Positions 839-57,768 of a stretch of 64,000 nucleotides of DNA are shown piece after piece. Below the pieces are notes generated by a model. The model worked only from the letters and a program-made list of their open reading frames with translations, did not search any database and had not been told where the DNA came from. Within the stretch, counting starts at the first letter, position 1. Every line of letters starts with the position of its first letter. A program made the position numbers and the translations under genes. The stretch comes from a virus. Taxonomy: Duplodnaviria; Heunggongvirae; Uroviricota; Caudoviricetes. The stretch lies in the IMG/VR virus record IMGVR_UViG_3300035494_000066; one strand, 5' to 3'.

Positions 839-2119
839 ACATCCCTCGAGGAAAGTTGTAAATTGACTAGAAATACTGCTGCGCGTGGTTGATTCTAAGA
901 TTTAGCAAGCGTGTACAGTAACATATCGTCGGTGCTGATTTTAACTGTTGTGCTTGCATACACTCTTGATGTTTTTTTGTTTTTCGAATCAACACGATAA
1001 ATTTTAATCGTCTTTTCGTGCGGCAGTGCGGCCACTACATAACATATTGAAATGCTGGCGTAATACGAAGCCCCTACATAGTCACCAGCGGTAATTTCCT
1101 TTCCTAACAGGTCAGTGTGAACATTCATGCTATATTAAGACAATTTGTTAGATTCAAATGCACGTTGTGACATACCGAAGAACATGTAGTGAAACCAACG
1201 TACATCACCGCTCTGGACTTTAATACGAAAACCGTTTTTGACTTTTTCGACAACCTCGTATGATTGTCCGTCAACAAGACCGCTCCATTTAAAATCGTCG
1301 CCGAGCATACGTGACCGTGCAATAATGTTCATATATGTTCTCCTTGACGTTCTAAGTTATGTGTTTATTATAAGACATGTGTTAGTGAAGGTCAATACTT
1401 TTTCTTACTTTAAGTAAGATCGGACGTAAAATCTGGCCTAGTATTCCAATGCTGTATGCATTCGCGCTTGCTATAACCGAGAATGGTAGCAGTGCACCCG
1501 CCGTAATGCTCTTGGCACACTATCTGCCAAAGCTGATTGCCTTCTGCGTCCTTCCTAGAAGCAGGATAAATTGTATCAATTGGGTCTTGATTATTTAGGT
1601 CATTTCCGCAGAACGGGCAAGGTAGCAAGTCGGCCATAGTTACTCATCTTCTAGTAAATCAAATTCAGCATTAAGTACAGTGAATGCATACTTCATTAAT
1701 TTGTGGAACGCAACCGGGTCTTCGTCTACTAAACGATTACCAACAGTCTCCATGTAGTATCCTTCGGAATCTTTCTTAAAGAACGCAATAGTAAAGCAGT
1801 ATTCTTTCATGTCAGGCATTCTCCAGCCTACAATTTCTGCTTCGCGATTCTCTATCCTCCGGAATTCTAAATCACCTACTCTCATATCAATCTGCCTTAA
1901 GTGTTGTTACTTTTGGTAATCGTCTTTTGGCCCAGCTGGGCGCACTGACCGAGATTGGTAATGTTGCTTAGCGTCTTCTCTCGATTTTTGTATGGTTCGC
2001 AACATTTACCGCACTGTATGTCTTTTTGGAGCAATCGCTGCTCTAGTGCTTCAGGAGAACTAAAGTCTTTACTGCTAATGTTTCTACAAATGCAAACTTT
2101 CATTATTATATCTTAAAGT

Positions 2120-3841: not shown

Positions 3842-3891
3842 GTAACTGAAGTAGCTAGATTTGAATCTATAACATACTCCAATGAAAAATT

Positions 3892-3965: not shown

Positions 3966-3967
3966 AT

Positions 3968-4043: not shown

Positions 4044-4044
4044 A

Positions 4045-4120: not shown

Positions 4121-4124
4121 AGTT

Positions 4125-4200: not shown

Positions 4201-4566
4201 ATTACAACTTTCCTAAAATGTTAAAGAGCGTTTGTCTAATTACAGACATTAAAAAAGGGTGCCTTTGCACCCTTTTTATTAAATTCTTTTCTACTTTACG
4301 AGCAAGGGTGCAGTTTCGTAAAGTAATCCTTATAATCGCGAGCGAAGAAAATCTCAGCCACAATCGCAGGGCGAACATTAGCCATCGGCTTAACATTATT
4401 CTCTGCAATGTTGTTATGATTGATTACGTTGTTCATTTCTTGCTCTCTTTAAGTTATGTTGTACAGTATACTACGTTTTTTTCTACTGTCAAGTCTTTTT
4501 GTAAAACTTTTTAAATTTCTTTTTGTTTAACTTTGTAAATTGTATAGTTTTATTTATATCTGTTAA

Positions 4567-4596
4567 CTAAAAAACCAGAACTTTTTTGGTTTTTAA
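4567..4596. terminator. A-run/hairpin/T-run bidirectional terminator-like element (repeat copy 1)
   Basis: Sequence aaaaaacc(a)gaacttttttggttttt. A near-identical copy lies at 6705-6728. Confidence 0.45.
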
Positions 4597-4733
4597 CTAC
4601 TCGGATAACAAAAAGAACACTAATTATGTTGCGTTTGTAACATAGTTAACTAAACTGTTGTTGTGTATACGCTTAGTCTTAAATTGTAATCTATGCATTA
4701 ATTATACAGATTAGTTACACACTGTCAACATAA

Positions 4734-6197: not shown

Positions 6198-6328
6198 AGT
6201 ACCCTAGTGTCGTGAAAGTGCAGTTCGGCGTCAAATCCAAGCAGTCCGATTGTAACTCGAAAACCAGCATGGTCGCACAGTGCGGAAACGTTAACGTCGA
6301 CGCTGACGATTGTTGGTGTTTTGTACAT
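6194..6328 (-). CDS. small ORF (43 aa) translationally coupled to the radical SAM gene (stop overlaps rSAM ATG as ATGA)
   Basis: Hand translation MYKTPTIVSVDVNVSALCDHAGFRVTIGLLGFDAELHFHDTRVL. Weak RBS. Not in the ORF track because it is shorter than 60 aa. Confidence 0.3.
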   Translation of the reverse strand: MYKTPTIVSVDVNVSALCDHAGFRVTIGLLGFDAELHFHDTRVL

Positions 6329-6692
6329 ATTGGCTTCTAGCACTTTGTTAACTTTTGGAAAGCTAAATGCTTTGTGTACAACAGTAGACCAACGGTTAAC
6401 GCCGGGTCTGACAAGTTGGTATTAAACGAAATCATTTGCTCGAATCCTTATACTTTTCGACTGCAGACGCAATGCGTTGCTTAAGGTCTAAATATGATGT
6501 TGAGTAATACTCATCGTCGGCTAAGTACGGAACTGCTACCCGTTCTACAGTCTTCTTAAAAGTCCAGCACATCGACGTAACCAATTCACTCTCACGACTT
6601 AAGCCTCCCATCACGCGAACGTGTAAACATGCTTCTAAAAACTAGCTAGTGTTTCTTTCTTTTTATTTATTATAGTGTCTTTTTGCGTAGTG

Positions 6693-6998
6693 TCAACTAA
6701 AAAACCGAAACTTTTTTGGTTTTTTAACTTCGTTGACTCGAGTCAACAAGCTGTGCAGCACACGTTGATATTTATTATCGCCGTCTAACTCAAAACGTTC
6801 GAGGCGATAGTAAAAATCTCCATCTCGGCGTGTACGAAGCACTTTATCTGCGCACAAGTAGTCTGTGCGATCGGACACATTGCGAAGCACGAAGTCGTAC
6901 ATAGCAGGATCGGATGATCTTTCTACCCGATACACAGATCCTTTAAAGTAGATGTTATTGCCTAGTTGCAAATCGTTAACTACTTTTACATGCATCAT
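6693..6998 (-). CDS. hypothetical protein (101 aa)
   Basis: Minus-strand ORF downstream of a TTGACA-17-TATACT promoter at about 7020-7060. Confidence 0.45.
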   Translation of the reverse strand: MMHVKVVNDLQLGNNIYFKGSVYRVERSSDPAMYDFVLRNVSDRTDYLCADKVLRTRRDGDFYYRLERFELDGDNKYQRVLHSLLTRVNEVKKPKKFRFFS

Positions 6999-7058
6999 GT
7001 CTGTGTCCTTCTTAACGTTTATGTATTAAGTATACAGCCTGTATTGTTGTTGTCAACC

Positions 7059-7700
7059 CTATTTACACGTGATCTTACTAATTTTTTCCACTATGCTTGA
7101 GTATGTAGAAGACGTGTACTCGGAGTCTACTAGATACGGTGTCTCGTATACTTGTACAATCTGTGTAGCTTGTGAAATAAATTGGTCAAACTCGTTAACG
7201 TCGCGGTTCAACATAGTGAATTCTTTGATTAGTTGTCTCAAGGTGTTGTTGTGCTTTACTAATACCTGTTCTAGTTCTTCGAGCTCAGGAAATTGATCCC
7301 AGCTTAGCTCGCTTAGTAATTCGGTAACATAGTGACAACTGTTTGCAACATATCCGTTTAAGAATCTTGACGTGTTCTTGAGTGCAACATTGCAATCTGA
7401 CAGTAAAGTTTCGACGTGTGTGTATTTTTGATCAACAACACGTTGCTTAGAAACAAAGTCTAACGCTACGTATCGGCTTAACATCTTCTTTGTTGTGCAG
7501 AACTTCTTTGTAATAGCTTGTTTAATTAGATCAGTTTTGCCGTCAATTGCATCCACTATTAGCGCAATCTGGTCCTGCTGTTTGACAATAATTGCAGTAG
7601 ATTGTTCAATTACCCGGTCACGTTTTGCAGTAGCAACGTTAATGGCTTCTTTTAGAGAATCAATTTCTGCAGCCGGGACTTTGCGCAAATCAACTTTCAT
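7059..7700 (-). CDS. hypothetical coiled-coil protein (213 aa)
   Basis: Long minus-strand ORF. No domain recognised. Confidence 0.5.
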   Translation of the reverse strand: MKVDLRKVPAAEIDSLKEAINVATAKRDRVIEQSTAIIVKQQDQIALIVDAIDGKTDLIKQAITKKFCTTKKMLSRYVALDFVSKQRVVDQKYTHVETLLSDCNVALKNTSRFLNGYVANSCHYVTELLSELSWDQFPELEELEQVLVKHNNTLRQLIKEFTMLNRDVNEFDQFISQATQIVQVYETPYLVDSEYTSSTYSSIVEKISKITCK

Positions 7701-8520
7701 GAAGTTTCCTTTTTGTGTTTAGTGACATCTGTACTATGGTGAAGTTGACTAGATGCTGAGTTAATCTTTTTGTTAGCAGTAACTTTAATCACTGACGTGT
7801 TAACAAGGACTACAGCAACAGCTATCATCGACGCAGCGTTAATAACAAATATCTCTAGTCCGTATAAAAATAGTTCCACAGCAGCTACTATCTGCTAATC
7901 AGTTGCGTAGTTAATTGTACACATTCGCTGCTAGTGTGTCAATTGAGACCCGGTGAGAGTGGCTCCGAATATAAAGTAGTCAGCGACGAACGTAAGTTCA
8001 GCACCGACGAAACTGATGCGTAGTACCTCCCTGAATAGTTCCACATCTGCTTAATTACAAACTACGCAACTATTACCCGGGCAGTGTAGGCAATGTTACT
8101 GAAGATTAGTGTCGACAGTAACGGTATTTCACTTGCACTAACGACAGCGGCATTATATAATGCCGCTGTCGTACACATAACTTACTTGTGCAGCTATTAA
8201 CACTGCGATATAGTAGTTGGTATACCGATGAATGAAGCGTACAATATGCGCAGTTATAAGCAGTCTGTACGCAACATACACAATGTTTGCAATCACTAAC
8301 TCCATGTTAGTCAGCAACGATACTTTCTTTGTATACAACTGGCTTACCGGTGTGTTGCATAAAGTCTACTAGGTTCCGGTAAGTTACTGGTGTAATTTGT
8401 TTTCGAAGTGCAGTTACTGCAGCTGTCATGTCGTCGCCGATAATCCATTCATACTCGCCGGTTTACCGACTTCTGATTTTCGAGACCAGCGCATTCAACC
8501 ACTCTGCCAACTTGCTAAAT

Positions 8521-8595
8521 TTGGCCTGCCTACCAGGACTCGAACCCGGATTAAAGGAGTAGAAATCCTCTGTGTTATCCGTTACACTATAGGCA
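8521..8595 (-). tRNA. tRNA-Arg (anticodon TCT)
   Basis: Hand fold. Acceptor ctgccta/taggcag, D gtgt/acac, anticodon arm gagga-tTTCTac-tcctt, T-arm ccgggttcgagtcctgg, CCA. Confidence 0.65.
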
Positions 8596-8825
8596 GGTGA
8601 AGTTTTACTTTGTGTGCTGTTTCCAGCGATTTAAATCTCGGAGCAGTTTATCTGCTCGATCAAATACATTTTGTAACATTAACCGTTCGTAGTCAGTTGG
8701 GTCATAACTAGGCGTGCCAACTGTTTCTTCTACTACCGCAGATCGAAGTTCTGCAATTTGAAGCAGCTTGTTGTCAATCCAACTTGTAGTATGGATGCTC
8801 ATTATTACTACTCCTTTTTAATGTA

Positions 8826-8911
8826 TGGTACCGATGAACGGACTCGAACTGTTACGCTATCTCTAGCAGAAGATTTTGAATCTCCTGTGTCTACCATTCC
8901 ACCACATCGGC
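8826..8911 (-). tRNA. tRNA-Leu (anticodon CAA), type II
   Basis: 86 nt. Acceptor gccgatg/catcggt, 3-bp D stem, anticodon arm ggaga-tTCAAaa-tcttc, 15-nt variable arm, T-arm aacagttcgagtccgtt, CCA. Confidence 0.6.
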
Positions 8912-9005
8912 ATAGTATGCGTTTTTACTTATCAGCGTAAGGCCGCACCCCCTGCTAATGAACTTTTTTAACGTAGTGTTCGTCTACGTTCACGGGCGTG
9001 TTGTT

Positions 9006-9186
9006 TGGTGCAAACGACGGGACTCGAACCCGCAATTACAGTTAACAAGGGCATTACTCCTTGCTAGTACAAGATTGGAAAAGCAGTCATCCCGCCTTGA
9101 AACCATGCTCCTGTGCTACTCGCTGTTAGGATTTTACTCCTCACTGTCCTTTTTCAGTGTGCGTATGCCATTTCCGCCACGTTTGC
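9006..9186 (-). ncRNA. tRNA-like RNA: canonical T-arm and 3' acceptor half with CCA, plus a matching 5' acceptor strand 181 nt away (insert of ~105 nt)
   Basis: 3' part gcgggttcgagtcccgt-cgtttgc-a-cca at 9006-9035. The complementary gcaaacg lies at 9180-9186. The interior contains a hairpin cactg-aaaaagga-cagtg. Confidence 0.3.
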
Positions 9187-9196
9187 ATGTTAAAAT

Positions 9197-9270
9197 TGGT
9201 GGGTCTGCCTGGAATCGAACCAGGACCGAGCGGTTATGAGCCGCCTGCTCGACCGTCAAGCTACAGACCC
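9197..9270 (-). tRNA. tRNA with CAT anticodon (Met elongator or Ile2-type; 1:72 paired)
   Basis: Hand fold. Acceptor gggtctg/cagaccc, D gctt/gagc, anticodon arm ggcgg-cTCATaa-ccgct, T-arm cctggttcgattccagg, CCA. Confidence 0.65.
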
Positions 9271-9963
9271 TTAAACTTTATTACTTGCGTAGTATACGCA
9301 TTTTTATTTATTATGTCAAGTATTTTTACATCACACTATACAAGCAGGCGTCTTAGCTGCTCTAGTATTAAAGTAACACCGCATTCTAGACCAACTCGGT
9401 ATAGTTACTTCCTAGACTTCTCTAGTTGACACAATACATGGTCATATAACTGATCGTGTTATATCGCGTCATGTCACTTGCTGTGTGCCGCAGCTATACA
9501 ATGTGATGTAAAAATACGCCTCGCGAAGCGTCACTAGTACCAATTTATCCAGTGATCTCATCTACACCAATGGAGGTCACTGTGATCCGGTGGTAATCGC
9601 CATATGCCTGATCCTGTATTAGGGCACCTGGTTTTACTGGGTTGTAGTTGCCGGTGCTGATCTCCGGCTTGCTGGTTGTGACATCTTAGGTTCCGTTTCA
9701 AACCATACAGCGCTGTATGTACGCGGTTCCCAGCGGCAGTCGGGCCAGCGACCATCTCAAGTCTTGAGATTCTTCGTGCGAGGATAAGTCGCACTTCATC
9801 TCGCGCATCAGCCTGCGCATTTACTACAACTAGAAGCATACTGCTGTTAGTGCTTGTATCGTCCGCACTCTTATACTCAGACAGTCTGCCGCTGCTCTCA
9901 CACCAACTCGCGTATTCTGGCGCAACAGCAATATGCTTGTAGTTTTAGTAAAATACAGTAATC

Positions 9964-10040
9964 TGGTGCCAGTAGTGGGATTCGAACCCACACTTTACAG
10001 AATCTCGACCTGCTACCTCTGCCAATTGGGCTATACTGGC
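9964..10040 (-). tRNA. tRNA-like (type undetermined; possibly degenerate or Leu-GAG-like)
   Basis: Perfect acceptor gccagta/tactggc, T-arm gtgggttcgaatcccac and CCA. D and anticodon arms fold poorly by hand. Confidence 0.35.
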
Positions 10041-10056
10041 TATCTCTTATATTGTT

Positions 10057-10085
10057 ATTGTATTTTCTATGTGCTTTTGTGTCAA
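10057..10085 (-). promoter_or_regulatory. sigma70-like promoter TTGACA-17-TACAAT directed into the tRNA-like element at 10040
   Basis: Minus-strand reading gTTGACAcaaaagcacatagaaaaTACAATaac. Consensus -35 box with 17-bp spacer. Confidence 0.5.
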
Positions 10086-10633
10086 CTACTTTTTGAGAGT
10101 TTTTACTGTTTCTTTTAGCTCGCATTCTTTAATTTTACGGATTGTAATGTAAGCTCCATAAATCATTACTGCTGACATAAACACAATCCCAGCGACACTA
10201 GGAATTACAGTCGACAACGTGTATGGATCGATATTTGGCATAGTTAGTCCTGTTGCAGGTTAGTATAATTTCAGAATGGAAGAATTAGCGCAACAATTGT
10301 GGAATTATACTTGCCTTTGTGCTTAGAGTAGCCTTTTTTAATAGCCTTTTTCTTATCAGTATGTGTAACGGCTTTGTTGTACTTTAATGCATTCTTTGCA
10401 ACGTAGTTTCTGTTATTCATCGTCTATCTCGTTTTTATTTTCTTTTTTGCTATGTTGCTGCTTGAGCTCGTGTGCTTGTTTGATCACTGATGCCTCGCAC
10501 GAAACGTTGATATCTCGCAGTCGAAAACCGCATGCTTGAATGTAGTTAATAGCAGTCCTGTAGTCCATTTGCAGCTCCGTTTAGTTTCTTATTTACCTGA
10601 ATATTATAGCAGAAACAGACTACAGGTCAACCT

Positions 10634-11080
10634 TTAATGTGATTTTTTCTCTTCGTCGTAGACACGTTTCCGCAGTGATGACGAACTAAACGAATGTTCG
10701 CGATCATTGAACACACACTTGTCCATGTGACCTGAGATGTCTTTGCCTGTAAAGTGCTTGGTTTTGTATTCATCGCCAAGAATACGAACATCATAGTCTA
10801 AGCACAGCAACAAGTCGTGCAAATCCTTCTCTGTGTGGTACACAATTGTGTGGTCTACATAACGTGAGGATGCTACTTGTATTTGGCGCTCAACGATCGA
10901 CTGTACTGGCTTATTCTTTGACGGACGATCTGCACTCGGGTCAATTTGGATTGCTACAATCAAATAGTCACAATGTTTCTTTGCGTCCCGGAACATCAAG
11001 TGATGCCCTGCATGACACAGGTCAAACGCACCAGCAGTAATGCCTACAGTCAAATTCTGTCTATTAGGAATGTCGATCAT
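10634..11080 (-). CDS. cytidylyltransferase-family nucleotidyltransferase (TagD / RfaE domain II-like, HxGH)
   Basis: GAFDLCHAGHHLMF (HxGH), DYLIVAIQID, ILGDEY and a C-terminal SSSSLR motif resemble glycerol-3-phosphate cytidylyltransferase. 148 aa. Confidence 0.6.
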   Translation of the reverse strand: MIDIPNRQNLTVGITAGAFDLCHAGHHLMFRDAKKHCDYLIVAIQIDPSADRPSKNKPVQSIVERQIQVASSRYVDHTIVYHTEKDLHDLLLCLDYDVRILGDEYKTKHFTGKDISGHMDKCVFNDREHSFSSSSLRKRVYDEEKKSH

Positions 11081-11409
11081 AAGTCTCTCTCATATTTTTC
11101 AAAAATAGCGATGAACACCAAGTCATCAGAGCTGCTATCGTTGTATACACGGTGGAAAGCGCCATCAGGTATCATAAAAAGAGAACCGCTCTCAACTTGG
11201 TAGAAATCGTTGTCGATTTGTATGCGGCCTGTCCCGGAATGAAAGATGTAAACCTCTTCAAGCCCTGGATGAGAGTGGCCGCGTGTCTGCATCTCAGGAT
11301 GCAATGTTGTTTTTGATACTGTTAGATGATTTAGGAACGTGTTATCTTCGAGTAAGTAAGTCTCGTTGTCTTTGATAACGGTTCCGTTTAAGTTTTGGAT
11401 TGATGTCAT
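11077..11409 (-). CDS. cupin-domain protein (110 aa)
   Basis: GHSHPGLEEVYIFHSGTGRI cupin motif. Start overlaps the upstream gene stop by 4 nt (coupled). Confidence 0.55.
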   Translation of the reverse strand: MTSIQNLNGTVIKDNETYLLEDNTFLNHLTVSKTTLHPEMQTRGHSHPGLEEVYIFHSGTGRIQIDNDFYQVESGSLFMIPDGAFHRVYNDSSSDDLVFIAIFEKYERDL

Positions 11410-11439
11410 ATTAATTGTGTATTATCTTTTTACCCGATA

Positions 11440-12075
11440 CTAAAGTATACTGCTTAGGAAAAGCTGGATATCCAGCTTTTCCTTAGAGCTTGCAGCAACT
11501 ATCTCAATAACCCGGGCGCGACCAACTACTCGCCCGCCGATTTTAAAGCATACACCGCGGTCAGTTTTTTCGATTGCAATTGGAGTTTTACGAGGGTTGC
11601 TGCCGCGGCTGTAAATGGTCATAGCAGCCGAACCGCCTTTTTGTACAGCTTCTTTCACAGCATTAACTGCAGCAGCAGCCTGCTTTGCACCAACTTCTAC
11701 ATCTGCATCAATTGCAGCTTGTTCAGCGTCACGCGCTGCAGCGTATTCGGCTTCTTTTTTAGCCCGGAACTCTGCATGCATTTTGCCTAGCTTGTCTAAG
11801 TCAATTGCTGCTGCAACTTCGGTGATTTCTTTAACTGCGTCAGCAAAATAAGAATATGCTTCAACATCGGACTCTACTTCTTTAGTGTCGCGTCCACCGG
11901 AAGAAACTGAAATTTCACAAGACCATTTCTCATCGCCGAACCCTACTGGACGAATATACAACCGGATCACGTCCGACCAAAAGCCTTTTACTTTTACTGA
12001 AACAGTTGGACGGGATTCAACAAGTTCTTCGTAGCTCGGAACAGAGTAAGAGTAGTTGTTGCTCATTTCTATCAC
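11440..12075 (-). CDS. hypothetical protein with Ala/Glu-rich central region (211 aa)
   Basis: Minus-strand ORF preceded by the TATAAT-leader promoter motif at 12083-12105. Confidence 0.5.
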   Translation of the reverse strand: MIEMSNNYSYSVPSYEELVESRPTVSVKVKGFWSDVIRLYIRPVGFGDEKWSCEISVSSGGRDTKEVESDVEAYSYFADAVKEITEVAAAIDLDKLGKMHAEFRAKKEAEYAAARDAEQAAIDADVEVGAKQAAAAVNAVKEAVQKGGSAAMTIYSRGSNPRKTPIAIEKTDRGVCFKIGGRVVGRARVIEIVAASSKEKLDIQLFLSSIL

Positions 12076-12144
12076 CTCAGTCGCTTAACTTATGCTTGTA
12101 TTATAGCACCGAGTGATACGAATGCAAGTGGTTTTTGCAATTAT

Positions 12145-12414
12145 CTAATTCTTTTCAACTAACTCAAGCAGTACGGATAGTCCGTGTGGGTTAGTTCCGT
12201 GCACAGTCCAGCGCTGACTTATGTCGTTAACGTTAATGCGGGCGTCTAACTCGTACGACACACTGTCAGACATTGTTACAACAAGCTTACAATATGCATT
12301 GTCGACTTTTTGAAACCCAGAAACATTAACGCTGTTGATTGTTAGCTCAGGACTGGTTGGCTTTCTTCTTTTGTACCAACTTTGCGGCATTACTTTAAAT
12401 GTGTATTCGGACAT
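12145..12414 (-). CDS. hypothetical protein (89 aa)
   Basis: Minus-strand ORF in the gene array. Confidence 0.4.
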   Translation of the reverse strand: MSEYTFKVMPQSWYKRRKPTSPELTINSVNVSGFQKVDNAYCKLVVTMSDSVSYELDARINVNDISQRWTVHGTNPHGLSVLLELVEKN

Positions 12415-12432
12415 TTAGTACCTTGTACAGCA

Positions 12433-12780
12433 CTACAACACCTTTAGTAATTTGAGTGCGTTTTTAGTTAATTGAACGTATGTGTAGTTTGTCGAGTACG
12501 GCTTGAACCCGTTGTACCGCTTCGTGGGAGAACTGAGTGATTCTCGTATACGGACTAAGTATCCTGTTTTGATTAGTTTTTGGAAATCTGCATCTCGGTT
12601 AATGACAAAGCAGTATCTGCGATTAACGGGTATTCGGAGATCACGACCGTAATCGTTAATGAACTTGAGTATAGCGTAGCGTCGAGGTTGACCCGACGAC
12701 ATTTGGCATATTTTGCGAAACGCTTCTGCTTTTGTTTCAACATGTATCGATTGGTTGAATGTCTTTTGCAAGTGCTTCAT
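12433..12780 (-). CDS. hypothetical basic protein (115 aa)
   Basis: Minus-strand ORF. Lys/Arg-rich. Confidence 0.4.
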   Translation of the reverse strand: MKHLQKTFNQSIHVETKAEAFRKICQMSSGQPRRYAILKFINDYGRDLRIPVNRRYCFVINRDADFQKLIKTGYLVRIRESLSSPTKRYNGFKPYSTNYTYVQLTKNALKLLKVL

Positions 12781-12794
12781 ACTATACTCGAAAT

Positions 12795-12870
12795 TGGCAG
12801 GTCGGGCGAGATTCGAACTCGCAACCTTGGTGTTTGGAGCACCCTGTTCTGCCGTTGGAACTACCGACCT
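12795..12870 (-). tRNA. tRNA-Trp (anticodon CCA)
   Basis: Hand fold. Acceptor aggtcgg/ccgacct, D gttc/gaac, anticodon loop cTCCAaa, T-arm gcgagttcgaatctcgc, CCA. Confidence 0.65.
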
Positions 12871-13057
12871 ATTTTTCTGTTATATCGAACTGACGCGTAG
12901 TATTTACACGTCTTAGCATACGAACTGTCGCTGTGACAGCTGTAATCTGCTTTAATGCACAACCCGTTTCGTGTAGTGCCCCAGTCCTTTATGCGAATAA
13001 AGTTAGTGCAGTTCCCACATGTTCTTCCAGTTGGCATATACATTTACTCTAAAATTG

Positions 13058-13131
13058 GCAGGGGTACCAAGAATTGAACTTGGACCACTGGAGTCAAAGG
13101 CCAGTGCTCTACCATTAAGCTATACCCCTAA
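13058..13131 (-). tRNA. tRNA-Gln (anticodon TTG)
   Basis: Hand fold. Acceptor aggggta/tacccct, D gctt/gagc, anticodon loop cTTTGac, T-arm ccaagttcaattcttgg, CCA. Confidence 0.65.
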
Positions 13132-13136
13132 ATTTG

Positions 13137-13211
13137 GAGGCGTGTGTGGGAATCTAACCCACAAAAACATGATTTGCAGTCATGCCCGTTAACATTCCGG
13201 CAACACGCCAA
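13137..13211 (-). tRNA. tRNA-Cys (anticodon GCA), U73
   Basis: Hand fold. Acceptor ggcgtgt/acacgcc, anticodon arm catga-cTGCAaa-tcatg, T-arm gtgggttagattcccac, discriminator T, CCA. Confidence 0.6.
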
Positions 13212-13356
13212 TAAAAAAGTCCTCGAGTATTTCTACCGGAGGACTTGTTACTATAACAAGTGTTACAGAATCAAATCCTCTAGAGACATACAGCACCATT
13301 GTTGTCGTTGTGTATTGCTATTGTGTTGCATGTCTTGTACTCCTCAGTATGTATAT

Positions 13357-13385
13357 AGTATATTTATCTCTTACGTTCTTGTCAA
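13357..13385 (-). promoter_or_regulatory. sigma70-like promoter TTGACA-17-TATACT upstream of the Cys/Gln/Trp tRNA island
   Basis: Minus strand cagTTGACAagaacgtaagagataaaTATACTata. Confidence 0.5.
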
Positions 13386-13909
13386 CTGGTTATTTTTGGT
13401 TTGTCGACAATAAAATTTGCATATCGAGTTAAAAATCCTCTTAAACAGTCAAGCCTAGCCTGCGTTTTAGTCTGACTATCTGCTACTAGCACGTCGACAG
13501 GAACAGAAACTTGTCCTACTTGGAACAGCTCGTCTGCTAATTCTTTAGATTCTTTAAGACCTTTTCCAGACACTGACCGAATTGATTTAATTAATGTTAC
13601 TTTATCTAAGCCAGCAGCCCGGCGAGCATCGCAGCGCTTATTGTATTCGTCCCCGCGGGTACCCCCGTCGCAGAACGCTTCTGGGACCTTTAAGCGGATC
13701 GTATCGTCTGATCCTATACCTAGTCTGTATGTAGATGATAGTGCAGCCATTAGATACGTGTCGATAACTGTAATGTCGTACCGGTTTACTACTTCTTCGA
13801 TTTCTTGCAAGATTCTTAGAGTAGTATCCGCTGACTCGGTAAGTGCATCGAGCTCCGACTTAAGCCAGTGTATTAAGACGGTATTCTCAAATGATTTCAT
13901 ATAAGGCAC
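13382..13909 (-). CDS. protein with C-terminal ribosomal L7/L12 C-terminal-domain-like region (175 aa), paralogue 1
   Basis: DKVTLIKSIRSVSGKGLKESKELADELFQVGQVSVPV aligns with the bL12 CTD core (vIKavRgaTGLGLKEAKdLVE). Paralogous to 13927-14427. Confidence 0.55.
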   Translation of the reverse strand: MPYMKSFENTVLIHWLKSELDALTESADTTLRILQEIEEVVNRYDITVIDTYLMAALSSTYRLGIGSDDTIRLKVPEAFCDGGTRGDEYNKRCDARRAAGLDKVTLIKSIRSVSGKGLKESKELADELFQVGQVSVPVDVLVADSQTKTQARLDCLRGFLTRYANFIVDKPKITS

Positions 13910-13926
13910 TCTCCTTAATAATTATC

Positions 13927-14427
13927 TTAATGTACACTGACAATAAACTGTTTAAACTGTTGATTAAACTCTCGGATAGCAGCAAGGTATTCAGTTACAT
14001 CTTCTAGTGACATTGTGAGCTGTGTTGCAGGTATTGATATCGAAGTTGATTTGCGAATCATCAATTCGTCTACTGAATTTTTTGCATCTTTAAGCAAAAC
14101 TCTAGAAACTTGTCTGATAGCTTTTATCATGCGTACACGATCTATGCCTAGATCAGATAACTTGCTGTATAGACCCTGACGCACTGCTAGTTGCTGCAGC
14201 AGAACTTCGATGTCTGCTGGCAATGCTAAATCGATTTGCACAGCAGATCCTTTGCCGGTTGAAAATTGATCAGTTAATACTGCTGCTACATAGCCACTGA
14301 TAAAAGTAATGTCGTACTTGTTTAAGGTGCATTCGATGTCGTTAAGAAGATCATGTACGTTTACAGTTCCGCCAGAGATTCCGTTAACAAGCCAGTTGAT
14401 GGCAATTGTATTATTGAGCGGTTTCAT
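13927..14427 (-). CDS. protein with L7/L12 CTD-like region (166 aa), paralogue 2
   Basis: Shares NKYDITFISGYVAAVL and RVRMIKAIRQVSRVLLKDAKNSVDEL blocks with the upstream paralogue. Confidence 0.5.
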   Translation of the reverse strand: MKPLNNTIAINWLVNGISGGTVNVHDLLNDIECTLNKYDITFISGYVAAVLTDQFSTGKGSAVQIDLALPADIEVLLQQLAVRQGLYSKLSDLGIDRVRMIKAIRQVSRVLLKDAKNSVDELMIRKSTSISIPATQLTMSLEDVTEYLAAIREFNQQFKQFIVSVH

Positions 14428-17966: not shown

Positions 17967-18370
17967 CGATAAAACGGTTTCGGAATATGTAACGTTAGTG
18001 TGCCGTTAAATCCTAAGTATGGCATCGGAGGTAGTTCACCGAATTCAGTATGGTACTTTCCGAATCGAAAAATATTCTCTGCCACATTAACATCGTCTAT
18101 GTATAACTCGTCGATTATAACAGCAGTTTCTTTCTCTACATAGTGCTTATTCTGCATGGATACTGTGATTGTAACGTCGTCTAACAACGGTATAGACGTG
18201 TTAACGTGTACATCATTGTACAAGTCGCAATCTAATAGAGTAATGCCGTTTACTGTCACAGTAACGCCAGGGAAGCCGGCGTCGACTATAGGACGTAACT
18301 TAGCTCTTACTTGAAGACGTAGGTCGCTGGTATCCGTGCCGGATAAAAAGTTCTGTATACACTGGGACAT
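17921..18370 (-). CDS. hypothetical protein (149 aa; true start may be internal)
   Basis: Overlaps the rSAM gene by about 70 nt. Confidence 0.4.
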   Translation of the reverse strand: MSQCIQNFLSGTDTSDLRLQVRAKLRPIVDAGFPGVTVTVNGITLLDCDLYNDVHVNTSIPLLDDVTITVSMQNKHYVEKETAVIIDELYIDDVNVAENIFRFGKYHTEFGELPPMPYLGFNGTLTLHIPKPFYRWRHDIKEYGWYITQ

Positions 18371-33728: not shown

Positions 33729-34004
33729 TTAATCCAACATGTTACGGTGAGCTGCTACACTAGCACAGTACTCGCTAATGCGCTCTGCAGAACCCCATGC
33801 TCCTCGGGGAACTTGATTGTAGATGAACTTAGCAATCTCTGGGATAGCAACAGCGTTCATAGAGTCTGCCCGGGCAACAGCACCCATTAAGTCATTTGAC
33901 AATACTGCGCACAAAAAGCCGCCCGGTTCAAAACCGTGTTCGATGTAGTTAGAAAGGGCATGTTGAGTGTGTTCCGGGATATTATAACCAGCAAAGTTCA
34001 TCAT
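33729..34004 (-). CDS. hypothetical protein (91 aa)
   Basis: Minus-strand ORF. Confidence 0.35.
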   Translation of the reverse strand: MMNFAGYNIPEHTQHALSNYIEHGFEPGGFLCAVLSNDLMGAVARADSMNAVAIPEIAKFIYNQVPRGAWGSAERISEYCASVAAHRNMLD

Positions 34005-34271
34005 GATGTGATCCTCTATTCCTAACTCTTTATGTGTGTATTATAGTGCCAAATTAGCATTAGTGTCAAGCTTAAATTTTACAAAATTATCAATTATTAG
34101 AAGGATTAACAAGGCACTCGGCTTTAACTTCTTCCTTGATACTATCGACTACCATTGAATGGTACGACAAGTTGTAGTTAATCCAGCGCGATGCTACAAA
34201 CGAAAAATATCCGCCAATGGCTAACACTGCTATTACAACAACACCAATTGCGATCATGATAAAATTATCTT

Positions 34272-36860: not shown

Positions 36861-37061
36861 TTAGGCTCCGAGTGCGTAGAGTTCGTAGTTGAGTTCTTCT
36901 TGGTAATCGTTATAGCGTACATGGTCGTCTTCTGCAAGCATTGCAACTTGCTTATCAGTTAGCAGCAGGAAGTGATCGAACATGTTAACTAGTGTACCGT
37001 CTTCGTTACGGTCTAGTGCACGGAACTCTTTCATAGTGTACTTCTTAGTACGAGCGTTCAT
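36861..37061 (-). CDS. hypothetical protein (66 aa)
   Basis: Minus-strand ORF. Confidence 0.3.
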   Translation of the reverse strand: MNARTKKYTMKEFRALDRNEDGTLVNMFDHFLLLTDKQVAMLAEDDHVRYNDYQEELNYELYALGA

Positions 37062-37164
37062 ATCGCTGACCTCGTTTCCTTAGTTGATATGCATAGTATA
37101 CAACCAAAGAAAAGAGAAGTCGACTCTTTTTTGGCAAATTAATTAGTTTAATAGAACAGTAGTG

Positions 37165-42352: not shown

Positions 42353-42604
42353 TTACACCAAAAATCCCAGTGAACGTGCTTCTTTGATTACTGCTTCGTT
42401 AACATCTTTGTTTGGAAATGTGATGTCTAGCAAGTAATCAACACAGTCTTCTTTCGGTAGCGATTCTTTTAAACTCACCATCTGGATGTCACTGTGGCCG
42501 TTTTTCTCGAGCACTTTGGCTCGCGACTTGCTGTTTGCATAACGCACTTTGTATTCGCCGTTGAAGAAAGAAACACCTACAAAAGAAAAAGTTTTGTCGT
42601 TCAT
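42353..42604 (-). CDS. hypothetical protein (83 aa), paralogue of the interrupted gene at 44615-45001
   Basis: Shares KVRYANSKSRAKVLEKNG-type blocks and an about 100-bp upstream promoter/leader region with the 45001 gene. Confidence 0.5.
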   Translation of the reverse strand: MNDKTFSFVGVSFFNGEYKVRYANSKSRAKVLEKNGHSDIQMVSLKESLPKEDCVDYLLDITFPNKDVNEAVIKEARSLGFLV

Positions 42605-42620
42605 TTTGCTTTCCTCTATC

Positions 42621-42690
42621 GCTTAACTTTATGTTTACATTATAGCTACACAACAAGCCCAGGTCAACACATTTTTTGGTATATTTTTAA
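42621..42690 (-). promoter_or_regulatory. sigma70-like promoter TTGACC-17-TATAAT with conserved leader (cctctatcgcttaactttatg...)
   Basis: Minus strand tgTTGACCtgggcttgttgtgtagcTATAATgtaaacataaagttaagcgatagagg then ATG. Duplicated at 45018-45075. Confidence 0.5.
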
Positions 42691-44614: not shown

Positions 44615-45001
44615 TTACAGCTCAACAAGCTTCAAGTTATTGTTCCAATCTGGCTCAATTGAAAATTTACGTCCAATGTACTTGACTTTCATTCCGTGCG
44701 ATACTGCAATAGCTTTAAACGCCGGCTCGTTGTTGTTTGAAATCACTGAACTCTTTGAGTTGATCCACACAAGCTGGCGACCATTTTCTTTAGCTCGAGC
44801 AGCATCTTCTTCTGGATTGCGGTTTGATTTAAGTGCGCGGGATCACACGTTGCCAGTGTAATACAGCTTAGTGTATGCAGAGCGCTCGGATTTAAGAGCT
44901 AGCACGTCAGCGTCGGAAATCTCCACAAATCCTTCAGTGTCAGCTTCGCGTGAAAAAACACTGAACGCCGGAAAACTAACAAGCAGCATTTCGTTTGACA
45001 T
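44615..45001 (-). pseudogene. paralogue of 42353-42604 interrupted by an in-frame TGA (at 44843-44845); pseudogene or read-through candidate
   Basis: Hand translation 52 aa, then TGA, then 75 aa. The stop aligns with a sense position in the intact paralogue. Same promoter/leader upstream. Confidence 0.4.
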
Positions 45002-45082
45002 GTCTCTTTCCTCTATCGCTTAACTTTATGTACTAAGTATAGTGGACAGAAGGCCAGGGGTCAACACATTTTTTCAAATTTC

Positions 45083-46982: not shown

Positions 46983-47252
46983 TTACTCCTGCGGCAGTTT
47001 CAGCCGAGTTGACTCTATTTTGATATGCGGACCGTTGCGACCAAATCCGAGCACTACAGTTTCTGGCAGTTCAGCAAACGTTTTGTTAACTTCCTAGTGA
47101 ATGTCGCGCTCCCACTTGGTCTTAGTGTAGCATCCCAGGCGCTGGTTAAACCCTTTGTCTCGGGAAAATACAGCACCGTCTTCGCGGATTGCATACTCTG
47201 CTCCGGTGTTAACTGGCTGAGTGTAGTAGCAAACAGACTTGAGCTTAGACAT
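46983..47252 (-). pseudogene. NUMOD4-containing homing-endonuclease remnant interrupted by in-frame TAG (at 47094-47096)
   Basis: Hand translation MSKLKSVCYYTQPVNTGAEYAIREDGAVFSRDKGF... carries a Y-x-VS/IR-x-x-G-x-V-x-S NUMOD4-like motif. 52 aa, then TAG, then 36 aa. Too short for an intact HNH enzyme. Confidence 0.35.
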
Positions 47253-47342
47253 ACTGCCTCCTAGTGGCATCGTTTAACTTAAGTATATTGTAGTGCCGCG
47301 CAGTCTCAAGGTCAACACCTTTGAGCAGATAATGTTACTTTT

Positions 47343-52675: not shown

Positions 52676-52945
52676 TTAAAAGTATTGACGACGGCTGTCG
52701 TCGGTTGCTAAGTCGCGGCGTACATTGCCGTTTTCGTCAATGTGGATACCCGGCAAGCCGTTAACATCCGGGCCAAGCATTTCAGCGGTTAGGTACCCGA
52801 ATCCTTTGTAATTACCAGTCTCCATTAGCGCAAGCTCGATAACATTGCACATACCGTATCGCATTTCTGCACTGCAGGTGCTATTTGCAAGCATGTCGTT
52901 AACACGAGTCTTCAGTTCGTCAACATTAACAGTTTTACGGGCCAT
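52676..52945 (-). CDS. hypothetical protein (89 aa)
   Basis: Preceded by the conserved TATAAT-leader promoter at 52962-52984. Confidence 0.4.
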   Translation of the reverse strand: MARKTVNVDELKTRVNDMLANSTCSAEMRYGMCNVIELALMETGNYKGFGYLTAEMLGPDVNGLPGIHIDENGNVRRDLATDDSRRQYF

Positions 52946-52961
52946 GTCGTCTACCTCGTTT

Positions 52962-52984
52962 GCTTAACTTATGCTTGTATTATA
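52962..52984 (-). promoter_or_regulatory. conserved promoter/leader element TATAATACAAGCATAAGTTAAGC (minus strand), copy
   Basis: Near-identical 23-mer at 12083-12105 and 57716-57738. -35-like TTGTAT 17 bp upstream. Confidence 0.5.
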
Positions 52985-53063
52985 AAGCCACCACGAGACT
53001 GATACAAGACTTTTCTTTAAAAATTTTGCCCAGCTTGGTCTGTTAGAGAACAGCACTGCTTAG

Positions 53064-56962: not shown

Positions 56963-57699
56963 ACTGCTACCTTTTCCCAGTTGTTTTTTACATACGTACG
57001 AGCCTGACCACGAGCCATATCTAGCGTAGACATTGCACTAGCAATAACATCGTCGATTGATTGACCTGCTGCCTTTGCTGCTGCAATCAGGTCTCGTACT
57101 GCATCAGCTTTTGAGCCAGTGCGTTTAACAGGCGCTGATTTTACTTTTTTTGCAGGAGTCGATTCTGTAATGTAGTTTCCGTTAATACCAATTACTCGAT
57201 GCTCACACTTGTTAGTCAGCTCGCCACCGTTCTTAACACGAAACGTCTTGCCTGCTACTAGCTTTTTATGATAGTGTTCGCTCAGTGTTACTTTGCGGCC
57301 GCATGTTGCTACGTACTCGTACGTTTTTCCACGTGCATACACAACAGGCAAATCATGAGTGCGAGTGGCGTTTCCGCCTAGTGCTTTACACACACGCTGC
57401 CATCCAGCATCGTGGCCGCGGCCGAGTTTGTTATTAAACTGACAAATAGTATGGGCAACTTCGTGCGGCACAGTATCGTTTAACATCTGTTCAGTCGCCA
57501 ACTCAAGCAGTGTGCTGTTAAATCGCAGAATAAACTGCGGATCAAGTCCGCCAGCGCGGCGGCGGATTGCTTGTCCTGCACAAGTACCTTTAAGGTCGAA
57601 CTTAATTACCGGCACAGGACAGTTGATGTTGTACAATTCGTTAGCAGTTTTGATCAGCTTCTGTACTTTCTCGATTACAGCAGTTTGATTCGGAGTCAT
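56959..57699 (-). CDS. SprT-like zinc metalloprotease domain protein
   Basis: HEVAHTICQF HExxH motif in a SprT-like context. 246 aa. Preceded by a TTGACC-17-TATAAT promoter with the conserved leader. Confidence 0.5.
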   Translation of the reverse strand: MTPNQTAVIEKVQKLIKTANELYNINCPVPVIKFDLKGTCAGQAIRRRAGGLDPQFILRFNSTLLELATEQMLNDTVPHEVAHTICQFNNKLGRGHDAGWQRVCKALGGNATRTHDLPVVYARGKTYEYVATCGRKVTLSEHYHKKLVAGKTFRVKNGGELTNKCEHRVIGINGNYITESTPAKKVKSAPVKRTGSKADAVRDLIAAAKAAGQSIDDVIASAMSTLDMARGQARTYVKNNWEKVAV

Positions 57700-57715
57700 G
57701 TCACTTGCCTTGTTT

Positions 57716-57768
57716 GCTTAACTTATGCTTGTATTATAAGGCCAGCTAGCTAGGTGGTCAACAACTTT
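57716..57768 (-). promoter_or_regulatory. sigma70-like promoter TTGACC-17-TATAAT plus conserved leader ACAAGCATAAGTTAAGC
   Basis: Minus strand gtTGTTGACCacctagctagctggccTTATAATacaagcataagttaagcaaaca. Confidence 0.55.

What the first reader, a model, noticed from the sequence alone, without database searches (positions are those of the whole stretch)
12083..12105. Conserved promoter-plus-leader family: TTGAC(A/C)-17-TATAAT followed by invariant ACAAGCATAAGTTAAGC 5' UTR
At least three genes share an identical 23-nt TATAAT-plus-leader block. Their starts are at 12075, 52945 and 57699. A related variant, ctctatcgcttaactttatg, precedes two more genes at 42604 and 45001. Most copies have a near-consensus -35 box at 17 bp.

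A conserved, non-SD leader downstream of a consensus host-type promoter suggests a shared post-transcriptional control site. Candidates are a translational repressor operator (as with T4 RegA), an RNase E or RegB-like cleavage site, or an sRNA target.

Many other genes here use plain TTGACA-17-TAnAnT promoters (10085, 13385, 14762, 17180, 27549, 7060). This is consistent with host-RNAP early transcription across the window.
Basis: seen in the sequence. Interest (0 to 1): 0.5.

Follow-up and report, generated by a model that had tools for sequence, protein, structure and literature searches.

The report
Phage early promoter with conserved leader
A large T4-like phage reuses the same host-type promoter together with the same first dozen transcribed bases in front of several early genes, much as phage T5 is known to do, so this looks like an extended strong promoter and not a new control site.

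Summary
On the minus strand, TATAATACAAGCATAAGTTAAGC occurs three times exactly. A variant, ACATAAAGTTAAGCGATAGAGGAAAG, occurs twice. All five copies share one geometry: -10 box, 6 nt, predicted +1 A, a 27-28 nt 5'UTR, GAGG, 8 nt, ATG.

The -35/-10 spacers are at chance identity while the block is invariant. The block is therefore constrained and is not a recent whole-cassette duplication.

The window is the early region of a 302-kb T4-like phage with dozens of sigma-70-type promoters. Many of them start with CATAA at the predicted +1.

The post-transcriptional reading gained no support:
- The leaders are unstructured.
- No antisense partner was found.
- No RegA homologue was found in the 84 kb examined.
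- The block keeps a fixed distance to the -10 box but a variable distance to the start codon.
- In other phages the same block precedes tRNA genes.

The same 5' end (ATAAGTTAA[G/A/C]) recurs as a promoter-family consensus in unrelated metagenomic phages. It also closely matches the conserved downstream region of phage T5 early promoters (ATAAATTGA; P11 reads ATAAGTTAATGAGAGG).

Best reading: an extended early promoter (initial transcribed sequence) fused to a standard open 5'UTR. It is a new member of a known kind, of modest interest.

The parts
12064..12127 (-). Cassette copy 1. -35 TTGCAT 12127-12122; 16-bp spacer; -10 TATAAT 12105-12100; discriminator ACAAGC 12099-12094; predicted +1 A at 12093; conserved block ATAAGTTAAGC 12093-12083; SD GAGG 12078-12075; ATG 12066-12064. 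The 5'UTR is 27 nt. The gene runs to 11440 (208 aa, no Pfam or PHROG match).
52943..53007 (-). Cassette copy 2. -35 TTGTAT 53007-53002; 17-bp spacer; -10 TATAAT 52984-52979; ACAAGC; ATAAGTTAAGC 52972-52962; SD GAGG 52957-52954; ATG 52945-52943. The gene runs to 52676 (89 aa, no family match).
57697..57761 (-). Cassette copy 3. -35 TTGACC 57761-57756; 17-bp spacer; -10 TATAAT 57738-57733; ACAAGC; ATAAGTTAAGC 57726-57716; SD AAGG 57711-57708; ATG 57699-57697. The gene runs to 56959 (246 aa, SprT-like metalloprotease).
42602..42667 (-). Variant cassette 1. -35 TTGACC 42667-42662; -10 TATAAT 42644-42639; discriminator GTAAAC; ATAAAGTTAAGC 42632-42621; SD GAGG 42616-42613; ATG 42604-42602. The 5'UTR is 28 nt. 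The gene runs to 42353 (83 aa).
44999..45064 (-). Variant cassette 2. -35 TTGACC 45064-45059; -10 TATACT 45041-45036; discriminator TAGTAC; ATAAAGTTAAGC 45029-45018; SD GAGG 45013-45010; ATG 45001-44999. The gene runs to 44843 (52 aa).
47240..47315 (-). Degenerate member: TTGACC-17-TACAAT atacTTAAGTTAAACgatgccactAGGAGGcagtATG.
6996..7056 (-). Degenerate member: TTGACA-16-TATACT taataCATAAACGTTAAGAAGGacacagacATG.
34002..34069 (-). Degenerate member: TTGACA-18-TATAAT acacaCATAAAGAGTTAGGaataGAGGatcacatcATG.
37059..37106 (-). Distant member of repeat family D4: TATACT atgcatATCAACTAAGGAAACGAGGtcagcgatATG.
1330..1395 (-). Degenerate member: TTGACC-17-TATAAT aaacaCATAACTTAGAACgtcAAGGAGaacatatATG.

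Best explanation
The block is the downstream part of a family of strong phage early promoters read by the host RNA polymerase, fused to a short standard 5'UTR.

**Anatomy.** The -10 box is followed by a 6-nt discriminator ending in C. Transcription is predicted to start at the A of CATAAG. The conserved ATAAGTTAAGC is then the first 11 nt of the transcript, that is, the initial transcribed sequence.

**Proposed function of the first part.** This purine-rich, C-poor, unstructured start is selected because near-consensus promoters are limited by promoter escape. The first 10-20 transcribed bases strongly set their productive output.

**Proposed function of the rest.** The remaining leader (a 4-nt linker, GAGG, an 8-nt spacer, then ATG) is an open, efficient ribosome-binding site. 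Several early genes thus receive the same transcription and translation start module.

**Shown versus inferred.**
- Shown: the sequence anatomy, the constraint, the anchoring to the -10 box, the lack of structure, and the recurrence in other phages and in T5.
- Inferred: the transcription start point, early timing, and the effect on promoter escape and strength.
For: 1. **Promoter context.** All five copies share the same geometry. The window holds dozens of same-strand TTGACA-17-TATAAT sites. It is a T4-like early region with topoisomerase II subunits, DNA ligase, RNA ligase, NAD salvage genes and 29 tRNAs.
2. **Start-site geometry.** TATAAT + 5 nt + C + A is the geometry of T5 N25, whose non-template strand from -12 to +2 is TATAATAGATTCAT (PMC7472727).
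3. **CATA at the predicted start.** In the window, 9 of 24 strict promoters have CATA at that position, against a background of 0.8%. In L044 it is 11 of 12. The gp52 relatives also show aCATA.
4. **Modular conservation.** Spacers are 2-8 of 17 identical, while the -10 box plus block is 23-24 of 24 identical. The two variant copies are identical from -2 to +24, yet their discriminators match at only 2 of 6 and their spacers at 3 of 17.
5. **Anchoring.** GTTAA lies 10 nt after the -10 box in 7 of 9 cases in L030 and 7 of 9 in L044. Its distance to the start codon ranges from 20 to 31 nt.
6. **Not tied to translation.** In tRNA-array phage contigs (L013, L035, L067) the same block heads a tRNA precursor.
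7. **T5 analogue.** About 15 of 27 annotated T5 promoters read TATAAT-N5-(c/t)ATAAATT(G/A)A...GAGAGG...ATG. P11 reads ATAAGTTAATGAGAGGG.
8. **Recurrence in other phages.** L030 (at least 8 promoters), L044 (5), L066, L039 and L095 use ATAAGTTAA[G/A/C]. They share almost no proteins with the window.
9. **Real promoters.** Of 59 metagenome matches, 33 carry an unrequested -35 box with at least 5 of 6 matches to TTGACA; chance is 1.9%.
10. **Literature.** The initial transcribed sequence changes output over roughly three orders of magnitude, and a purine-rich non-template strand favours escape from N25 (PMC5961368; PMC12464699). The leader is 14 of 20 purines from +1 to +20.
11. **Open leader.** The leaders are unstructured.
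Against: - No transcription start or expression data exist for this phage, so +1 and early timing are inferred.
- Escape optimisation alone does not obviously require an exact 11-nt sequence. The published randomised-sequence screens found only weak consensus for fast escape, and T at +2/+6/+7 is not a clear 'fast' signature.
- Conservation of the variant pair extends to +24, beyond what RNA polymerase contacts during escape. Part of the constraint must therefore be at the RNA or translation level, or reflect shared ancestry.
- The closest relatives by gp52 keep CATA but not GTTAAGC. The second half of the block is therefore not essential for this promoter type.
Confidence: 0.6

Rival explanations
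1. Post-transcriptional control site. The 5'-terminal AUAAGUUAAGC would be bound by a phage translational repressor, cut by a phage or host endoribonuclease, or paired with a small RNA, so that a set of early mRNAs is switched off together.
For: - The block is constrained while neighbouring promoter spacers are free.
- In the variant pair, conservation starts almost exactly at the predicted +1 and runs through the 5'UTR. That pattern fits selection on the transcript.
- T4-like phages are known to use RegA and RegB (established knowledge).
Against: - No RNA structure.
- No complementary sequence on the transcribed strand beyond chance.
- No RegA homologue in 84 kb.
- The block does not overlap the SD or AUG, where RegA and RegB act. 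It contains no GGAG, and the SD here is GAGG/AAGG.
- It is anchored to the -10 box, not to the start codon.
- It also precedes tRNA genes in other phages.
- It recurs in phages from low-GC gut and rumen samples and in T5. A single phage-specific regulator is therefore unlikely.
Confidence: 0.12
2. PeSL-type mobile regulatory cassette. The identical promoter-leader segments would be kept alike by, and serve as sites for, homologous recombination that shuffles small early genes, as described for T4-like phages.
For: - PeSLs are defined as early promoter + stem-loop + SD + start codon. Recombination joints were mapped between the -10 box and the SD (PMC2839356; PMC4122927).
- The window is a hyperplastic early region full of small ORFans.
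- True terminator-plus-promoter repeats exist at 30595-30660 / 31068-31133 and at 4522-4594 / 6652-6724.
Against: - None of the five copies has an adjacent stem-loop (and the sequences).
- Identity is confined to 23-25 nt islands with randomised spacers in between. This pattern suggests purifying selection on functional modules and not gene conversion of whole cassettes.
- No close relative exists in which to look for indels. All other assemblies of this phage are 100% identical, and the next SprT homologue is 42% identical.
Confidence: 0.15
3. DNA-level operator or class mark. The sequence from -6 to +12 would mark a temporal class of promoters. A phage protein (a repressor or an RNA-polymerase-binding factor) would recognise it to shut these promoters off after the early phase.
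For: - In T5, early promoters share a class-specific discriminator. The RNAP-binding protein gpT5.026 weakens RNAP contacts with -5/+2 (PMC7472727).
- The three main copies share the discriminator ACAAGC as well as the block.
- GCATAAGTTAAGC is a 10-of-13 imperfect palindrome (read directly from the sequence).
Against: - The variant pair has unrelated discriminators, and the dyad symmetry is not kept in the variants.
- The same block is used by many unrelated phages, which would each need a matching factor.
- No candidate binding protein was identified.
Confidence: 0.08

Closest known systems
Early promoters of coliphage T5 (N25, P25/26/28, H207 and others; Gentz & Bujard 1985 and Kammerer et al. 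1986, as cited in PMC7472727 and PMC12464699; their content recalled from memory)
   Same: - Near-consensus sigma-70 promoter with an A-rich upstream tract.
- The same -10 to +1 geometry (TATAAT-N5-C-A).
- A conserved transcribed start ATAA(A/G)TT(G/A)A followed by a GAGG-type SD and an ATG about 25-28 nt from +1.
- Many copies per genome in front of small early genes and tRNAs.
- T5 P11 reads ATAAGTTAATGAGAGG, against ATAAGTTAAGCAAACGAGG here.
   Different: - A different phage lineage: T4-like, not Demerecviridae.
- T5's -35 box is TTGCTT-like and its discriminator is ATATT(C/T).
- In T5 the SD follows the block directly, whereas here a 4-nt linker intervenes.
- Here only a subfamily of the promoters (5 strict copies plus about 6 degenerate ones) carries the full block.
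- The function of the downstream region was tested for T5 N25, not here.
PeSL (promoter-early stem-loop) cassettes of T4-like phages RB49/phi1, T4/PST and KVP40/nt-1 (PMC2839356, PMC4122927)
   Same: - Repeated intergenic modules made of an A/T-rich tract, sigma-70-like -35 and -10 boxes, an SD and a start codon.
- Located in hyperplastic early regions, in front of ORFans.
- Found in a T4-like phage that encodes NAD-salvage genes and many tRNAs, as KVP40 does.
   Different: - The five copies lack the defining stem-loop.
- The published definition stresses the promoter boxes and the hairpin, not an invariant transcribed block.
- A role in recombination could not be tested.
T4 RegA translational operators and RegB cleavage sites
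   Same: They are shared short RNA signals in the 5' regions of several early mRNAs of a T4-type phage.
   Different: - RegA sites overlap the start codon, and RegB cuts GGAG in the SD (established knowledge, recalled).
- The present block is at the extreme 5' end, 16-27 nt upstream of AUG. It lacks GGAG and is anchored to the promoter.
- No RegA homologue was found in the 84 kb examined.
Sigma-70-dependent promoter-proximal pause elements (lambda PR', lacUV5)
   Same: A -10-like hexamer of form TAnnnT lies in the first transcribed bases: TAAGTT or TAAAGT at +2 to +7.
   Different: - No pausing data exist.
- No Q-type antiterminator context is present.
- T at +7 is not enriched among the window's other promoters.
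- This is a resemblance only.

Membership tests
Sigma-70-type phage early promoter with conserved downstream region (T5 type) | -35 and -10 hexamers close to TTGACA/TATAAT at a 16-18 bp spacing | tested here: met
   The -10 box is TATAAT in 4 copies and TATACT in 1. The -35 box is TTGACC in 3 copies, TTGTAT in 1 and TTGCAT (16 bp spacer, with TG extended -10) in 1.
Sigma-70-type phage early promoter with conserved downstream region (T5 type) | A-rich (UP-like) tract upstream of the -35 box | tested here: met
   All five copies have such a tract: ttgcaaaaaccac, tttttaaagaaaagtc, ttgcaaaaaagttg, accaaaaaatgtg and tttgaaaaaatgtg.
Sigma-70-type phage early promoter with conserved downstream region (T5 type) | Conserved sequence from +1 to about +10 shared by many promoters of the genome (T5: ATAAATTGA) | tested here: met
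   ATAAGTTAAGC occurs 3 times and ATAAAGTTAAGC twice, plus degenerate members. T5 promoters were read directly for comparison.
Sigma-70-type phage early promoter with conserved downstream region (T5 type) | Transcription by host RNA polymerase starting at the predicted A, early in infection | not testable with these tools
   No transcriptome exists for this uncultured phage. The start point is inferred from geometry identical to N25.
Sigma-70-type phage early promoter with conserved downstream region (T5 type) | The downstream region contributes to promoter strength or escape | not testable with these tools
   Supported only by analogy (PMC12464699, PMC5961368).
PeSL cassette (T4-like phages) | Sigma-70-like early promoter with an SD and start codon at the 3' end | tested here: met
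PeSL cassette (T4-like phages) | Stem-loop (terminator or attenuator) within or next to the promoter | tested here: not met
   No terminator-like hairpin lies adjacent to any of the five copies (sequences). Such hairpins are present at other cassettes: 30626-30651, 31099-31124, and 4522-4594 / 6652-6724.
PeSL cassette (T4-like phages) | Association with indels or replacements between close relatives, or mini-circle formation | not testable with these tools
   Other assemblies of this phage are 100% identical. The nearest relatives are too distant.
RegA translational operator | Site overlaps the SD/start codon of the target mRNAs | tested here: not met
   The block spans +1 to +11, which is 16-27 nt upstream of AUG. 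The sequence around the AUG is not conserved among copies.
RegA translational operator | The phage encodes a RegA homologue | tested here: inconclusive
   tblastn with T4 RegA against the window plus flanks (84 kb) gave a best E-value of 1.4. About 218 kb of the genome was not available.
RegB cleavage site | GGAG motif, usually in the SD | tested here: not met
   The SDs are GAGG or AAGG, and no GGAG occurs in any of the five leaders.
sRNA target | A complementary RNA is encoded by the phage | tested here: inconclusive
   No complement on the transcribed strand of the window beyond chance: 2 weak hits against 2.2 expected. The rest of the genome and the host were not searchable.

The most novel reading that the evidence does not exclude
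ATAAGTTAAG, fixed at +1 to +10, may be a discrete functional element that unrelated phages of Gram-negative and Gram-positive hosts have converged on.

One possibility follows from the -10-like hexamer it carries at +2 to +7 (TAAGTT or TAAAGT; TAAATT in T5). This could re-engage the sigma factor, giving sigma retention or a promoter-proximal pause near the SD.

Alternatively, it could form a 5'-terminal RNA tag read by a universal host factor.

Either reading would add a new module to the definition of strong phage early promoters.
Probability: 0.12. Interest if true: 0.6.

Novelty: new member of a known kind. Interest (0 to 1): 0.3.

Why it matters
The finding gives a clean natural example, outside T5, of a promoter family in which the first transcribed bases are conserved as tightly as the -10 box. 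That supports the view that the initial transcribed sequence belongs to the promoter.

The recurrence of nearly the same 5' end in unrelated uncultured phages offers a ready set of natural sequences for testing rules of promoter escape and 5'UTR design.

For annotation, it provides a motif that marks early transcription units. It also corrects start codons in this phage group, for example ATG 12066 in place of GTG 12075.

Tried and rejected
- **Exact 17-mer in IMG/VR.** The 5 hits all lacked a promoter context and are chance matches. The 21-mer variant gave 0 hits.
- **Near-identical DNA in GenBank phages.** None found.
- **Close relatives through the genes downstream of the leader.** None in IMG/VR. 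The nearest SprT homologue among 5.8 billion proteins is 42% identical. Orthologous-position conservation therefore could not be tested.
- **Closest relatives by gp52 (L007-L012, 68-73% aa).** They have the same promoter style and aCATA at the start, but no GTTAAGC: 1 of 37 promoters, which is background.
- **PA5oct.** This is the best named-phage hit for a gene in motif-bearing locus L044. It does not use the leader.
- **Bacterial genomes (one per species).** There were 23 matches, of which only 3 had a strong -35 box. Most are Clostridia-type repeats or chance, so they give no clue to the host.
- **RNA structure.** None. 5'-hairpins formed by GTTAAGC with a downstream GCTTAAC exist in a few foreign contigs (L016, L021, L026, L050, L072) but not in the window.
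- **Antisense partner.** None.
- **RegA.** None in 84 kb.
- **Literature search by sequence string.** Only primers and unrelated hits.
- **Ideas considered and dropped:**
  - IHF, Fis and ArcA sites: poor fit by eye.
  - NAD-cap-favouring start: -1 is C and +2 is T, contrary to the published preference as I recall it.
  - rrn boxA: only UUAACAA is shared, and GCUC is absent.
  - Tandem UAAG repeats: not kept in T5, L030 or L044.

Full report
**1. Observation**

The minus strand carries ACAAGCATAAGTTAAGC three times without mismatch, at 12083-12099, 52962-52978 and 57716-57732. Allowing up to 3 mismatches, shuffles give 0.40 matches. Each copy directly follows TATAAT and precedes a GAGG/AAGG Shine-Dalgarno sequence and an ATG.

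The variant, CTCTATCGCTTAACTTTATG in plus-strand spelling, occurs twice at 42614-42633 and 45011-45030, against 0.01 expected. An independent repeat search recovers both families as D4 and D14.

All five copies share one geometry:
- a -35 box, then a 16-17 bp spacer;
- a -10 box, then a 6-nt discriminator ending in C;
- an A, then a 5'UTR of 27-28 nt;
- a conserved block at +1 to +11/12, then a 4-nt linker;
- GAGG or AAGG, then 8 nt, then ATG.

This geometry shows that the gene of copy 1 most likely starts at ATG 12066. The GTG at 12075 lies inside the SD. Only three copies have a near-consensus -35 box (TTGACC). Copies 1 and 2 have TTGCAT and TTGTAT.

**2. Context**

Every substantial ORF lies on the minus strand. 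Pfam identifies several functions:
- both T4-type topoisomerase II subunits;
- an ATP-dependent DNA ligase and an RNA ligase;
- NAMPT-like and Prs-like NAD-salvage enzymes;
- two radical-SAM proteins.

ARAGORN finds 29 tRNA genes in the first 14 kb. The gp52 homologue is at most 43% identical to any GenBank phage, the best being Vibrio phage Va1. No GenBank phage shares DNA identity with the window.

The same sequence occurs, 100% identical, in several public assemblies, the longest being 302,565 bp. The window is therefore the early, hyperplastic region of an uncultured T4-like jumbo phage.

Promoter-like strings (TTGA[CAT]N, 16-18 nt, TAnnnT) number 42 on the minus strand and 12 on the plus strand.

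**3. The block is constrained and modular**

- Among the three main copies, the -10 box, discriminator and first 12 transcribed bases are 23-24 of 24 identical. The 17-bp spacers are 2-8 of 17 identical, which is chance level.
- The two variant copies share the upstream tract and the -35 box, differ in the spacer (3 of 17), the -10 box (5 of 6) and the discriminator (2 of 6), and are then identical from -2 to +24.
- This mosaic is not what a recent duplication of a whole cassette would leave. It points to selection on separate functional modules. A contribution from short-patch recombination cannot be excluded.

**4. The block is the extreme of a graded family**

Many other promoters in the window read TATAAT-N5-CATAA, followed by a looser (G/C)TTA(A/G). 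Examples:
- CATAAACGTTAAGAAGG
- CATAAAGAGTTAGG
- CTTAAGTTAAAC
- CATAACTTAGAAC
- CATAGCTTAAAGAG

Among 24 strict promoters, 9 have CATA at the predicted start (background 0.8%) and 5 have GTTAA[ACG] (background 1.8%). Ten kilobases on either side of the window hold further members, CATAAGGTAAGCAAAC and CATAACTTAGCAAAG.

**5. Tests of the post-transcriptional reading**

- The five leaders with 25 nt of coding sequence fold no better than shuffles, and four fold worse (z = +1.0 to +1.4).
- The complement of the block is not found on the transcribed strand beyond chance.
- T4 RegA, taken from NC_000866, has no homologue in the 84 kb available. This is weak evidence, given a 302-kb genome.
- The block does not overlap the SD or AUG and contains no GGAG.

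**6. Related and unrelated genomes**

The closest relatives found are six IMG/VR contigs with 68-73% identity in gp52. They use the same promoter style and often aCATA at the start, but not GTTAAGC.

A degenerate pattern covering both variants (TATAMT-N5-CATAA-N0-1-GTTAAGCRA) gave 59 matches in 58 metagenome loci. Of these, 33 have a -35 hexamer with at least 5 of 6 matches to TTGACA at 16-18 bp. That box was not part of the pattern, and its chance frequency is 1.9%. In one-per-species bacterial genomes only 3 of 23 matches have such a box. All 3 IMG/VR matches do.

In several of these contigs the motif is the consensus of a whole series of promoters:
- L030: at least eight copies of aatagCATAAGTTAAC/GTTAAAC/GTTAAGC...GAGGGC...ATG.
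- L044: five copies of agctgCATAAGTTAA[A/G]CAA...GGAGCGAA...ATG.
- L066/L062, L039 and L095/L032.

These contigs share almost no proteins with the window. The exceptions are a 41%-identical SprT homologue in L044 and a 40% match over 57 aa in L030.

In L030 and L044 the GTTAA lies exactly 10 nt after the -10 box in 7 of 9 cases each. Its distance to the start codon varies from 20 to 31 nt.

In freshwater contigs that are long tRNA arrays (L013, L035, L067), the same promoter plus block precedes a tRNA gene, not an ORF.

The block is thus tied to the transcription start and not to the ribosome-binding site. It also does not need to be translated.

**7. The known analogue**

The T5 record (NC_005859) annotates its mapped promoters. 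Read out on their own strand, about 15 of 27 are TATAAT-N5-(c/t)ATAAATT(G/A)A followed by GAGAGG and an ATG. P11 reads TATAATatttatATAAGTTAATGAGAGGG.

PMC7472727 gives the N25 non-template strand from -12 to +2 as TATAATAGATTCAT. It also notes that T5 early promoters share a class-specific discriminator. This fixes the start-site geometry used above.

For N25 the initial transcribed sequence is a strong determinant of productive initiation, and purine-rich non-template sequences favour escape (PMC12464699). Randomised positions +2 to +10 change output by about three orders of magnitude, which led those authors to include this region in the definition of a promoter (PMC5961368).

The original dissection of the T5 downstream region (Kammerer et al. 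1986; Gentz & Bujard 1985) could not be opened. It is cited from memory and from the reference lists of the papers above.

A sample of 125 distinct IMG/VR promoters of form TTGACA-17-TATAAT-N5-CATAA shows the general trend: purine at +5 (76%), T at +7 (51%), A at +8 and +9 (61% each), and very little C.

**8. PeSL comparison**

T4-like phages carry repeated early-promoter cassettes, called PeSLs, that end in an SD and a start codon and mediate gene shuffling. Crossovers were mapped between the -10 box and the SD (PMC2839356; PMC4122927).

The window does contain such cassettes. GAGAGAAAGGGGTTTACATAGCCCCT occurs twice, with the -35 box TTTACA in the hairpin loop (D10/D11). There is also a terminator-plus-promoter repeat, D9.

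The five copies under study have no adjacent hairpin, so the defining feature is not met. Their recombination role cannot be tested without close relatives.

**9. Conclusion**

The evidence favours an extended early promoter (discriminator plus initial transcribed sequence) fused to a standard, open 5'UTR, of the kind long known in T5 and related in spirit to PeSL cassettes. It does not favour a dedicated post-transcriptional operator.

What remains unexplained is why the exact string ATAAGTTAA(G/A/C) recurs in unrelated phages. A -10-like hexamer at +2 to +7 (TAAGTT, TAAAGT, and TAAATT in T5) is a possible lead, but T at +7 is not enriched among the window's other promoters. I rate this as a low-probability novel reading.

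Noticed in passing
window 30595-30660 and 31068-31133 (minus strand), with a partial third copy at 29347-29380: Repeated composite terminator-promoter cassette TTGAGAGAAAGGGGTTTACATAGCCCCTtt..TTTATAAT. The -35 box (TTTACA) sits in the loop of an A3G4...C4T3 hairpin. This matches the PeSL architecture described for KVP40/nt-1-type phages.
   Followed up: partly
window 4522-4594 and 6652-6724 (minus strand): A second repeat. A hairpin AAAAACCAAAAAAGTTCTGGTTTTT (terminator-like) is directly followed by a promoter: TTGACA-16-TATAAT at 6696-6669 and, with a weaker -35 (TTAACA-16-TACAAT), near 4544.
   Followed up: no
window 12064-12078: The ORF list starts this gene at GTG 12075, which lies inside the GAGG Shine-Dalgarno sequence. 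By analogy with the other four cassettes, the in-frame ATG at 12066 is the likely start.
   Followed up: yes
window 1-14000: There are 29 tRNA genes on the minus strand, with several duplicated isoacceptors (Pro, Ile, Asp, Phe, Glu, Tyr, Ala, Met). One has an irregular anticodon loop (3968-4043). Promoters at about 9296 and 10062 lie 15-20 nt upstream of tRNA-Met and tRNA-Leu and have AT-rich ATAAAG/ATAAG-type starts.
   Followed up: partly
window 34857-36476, 37165-38076, 4734-6197, 18300-19610; flank L102 6504-11826: Auxiliary metabolism genes: NAMPT-like and Prs-like NAD-salvage genes and two radical-SAM proteins. Just outside the window lie thymidylate synthase, a Thg1-like protein, a Trp-halogenase-like flavoprotein and a methyltransferase.
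   Followed up: no
L013 3275-3360, L035 6170-6260, L067 (freshwater phage-like tRNA arrays): The same promoter plus CATAAGTTAAGCAA start is followed by TTAACATCGTTCTTTAAAAG. This resembles an rrn/nut boxA (GCTCTTTAACAA, recalled) and lies just upstream of a tRNA gene. It may be an antitermination signal for untranslated tRNA-array transcripts.
   Followed up: no
L006, L099-L104: Assemblies from several independent samples are 100% identical to the window over every overlap (99.98% for L104). The samples are SRR11791769/70/834, SRR634690, ERR700148 and JGI 2228664012. The phage is therefore widespread but shows no microdiversity in these data.
   Followed up: partly
window 42621-42632 and 45018-45029: The variant leader contains UAAAGUUAA, the exact reverse complement of the T7 gene 10 'epsilon' translational enhancer UUAACUUUA. 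It would therefore be identical to the 16S rRNA segment that epsilon was proposed to pair with (recalled from memory). This is probably coincidence.
   Followed up: no
L016/L056, L021, L026, L050, L072: In some foreign contigs, GTTAAGC(A/G)A is followed within 1-5 nt by its complement (GCTTAAC and similar). This gives a hairpin at the 5' end of the transcript. The window's copies lack it.
   Followed up: no
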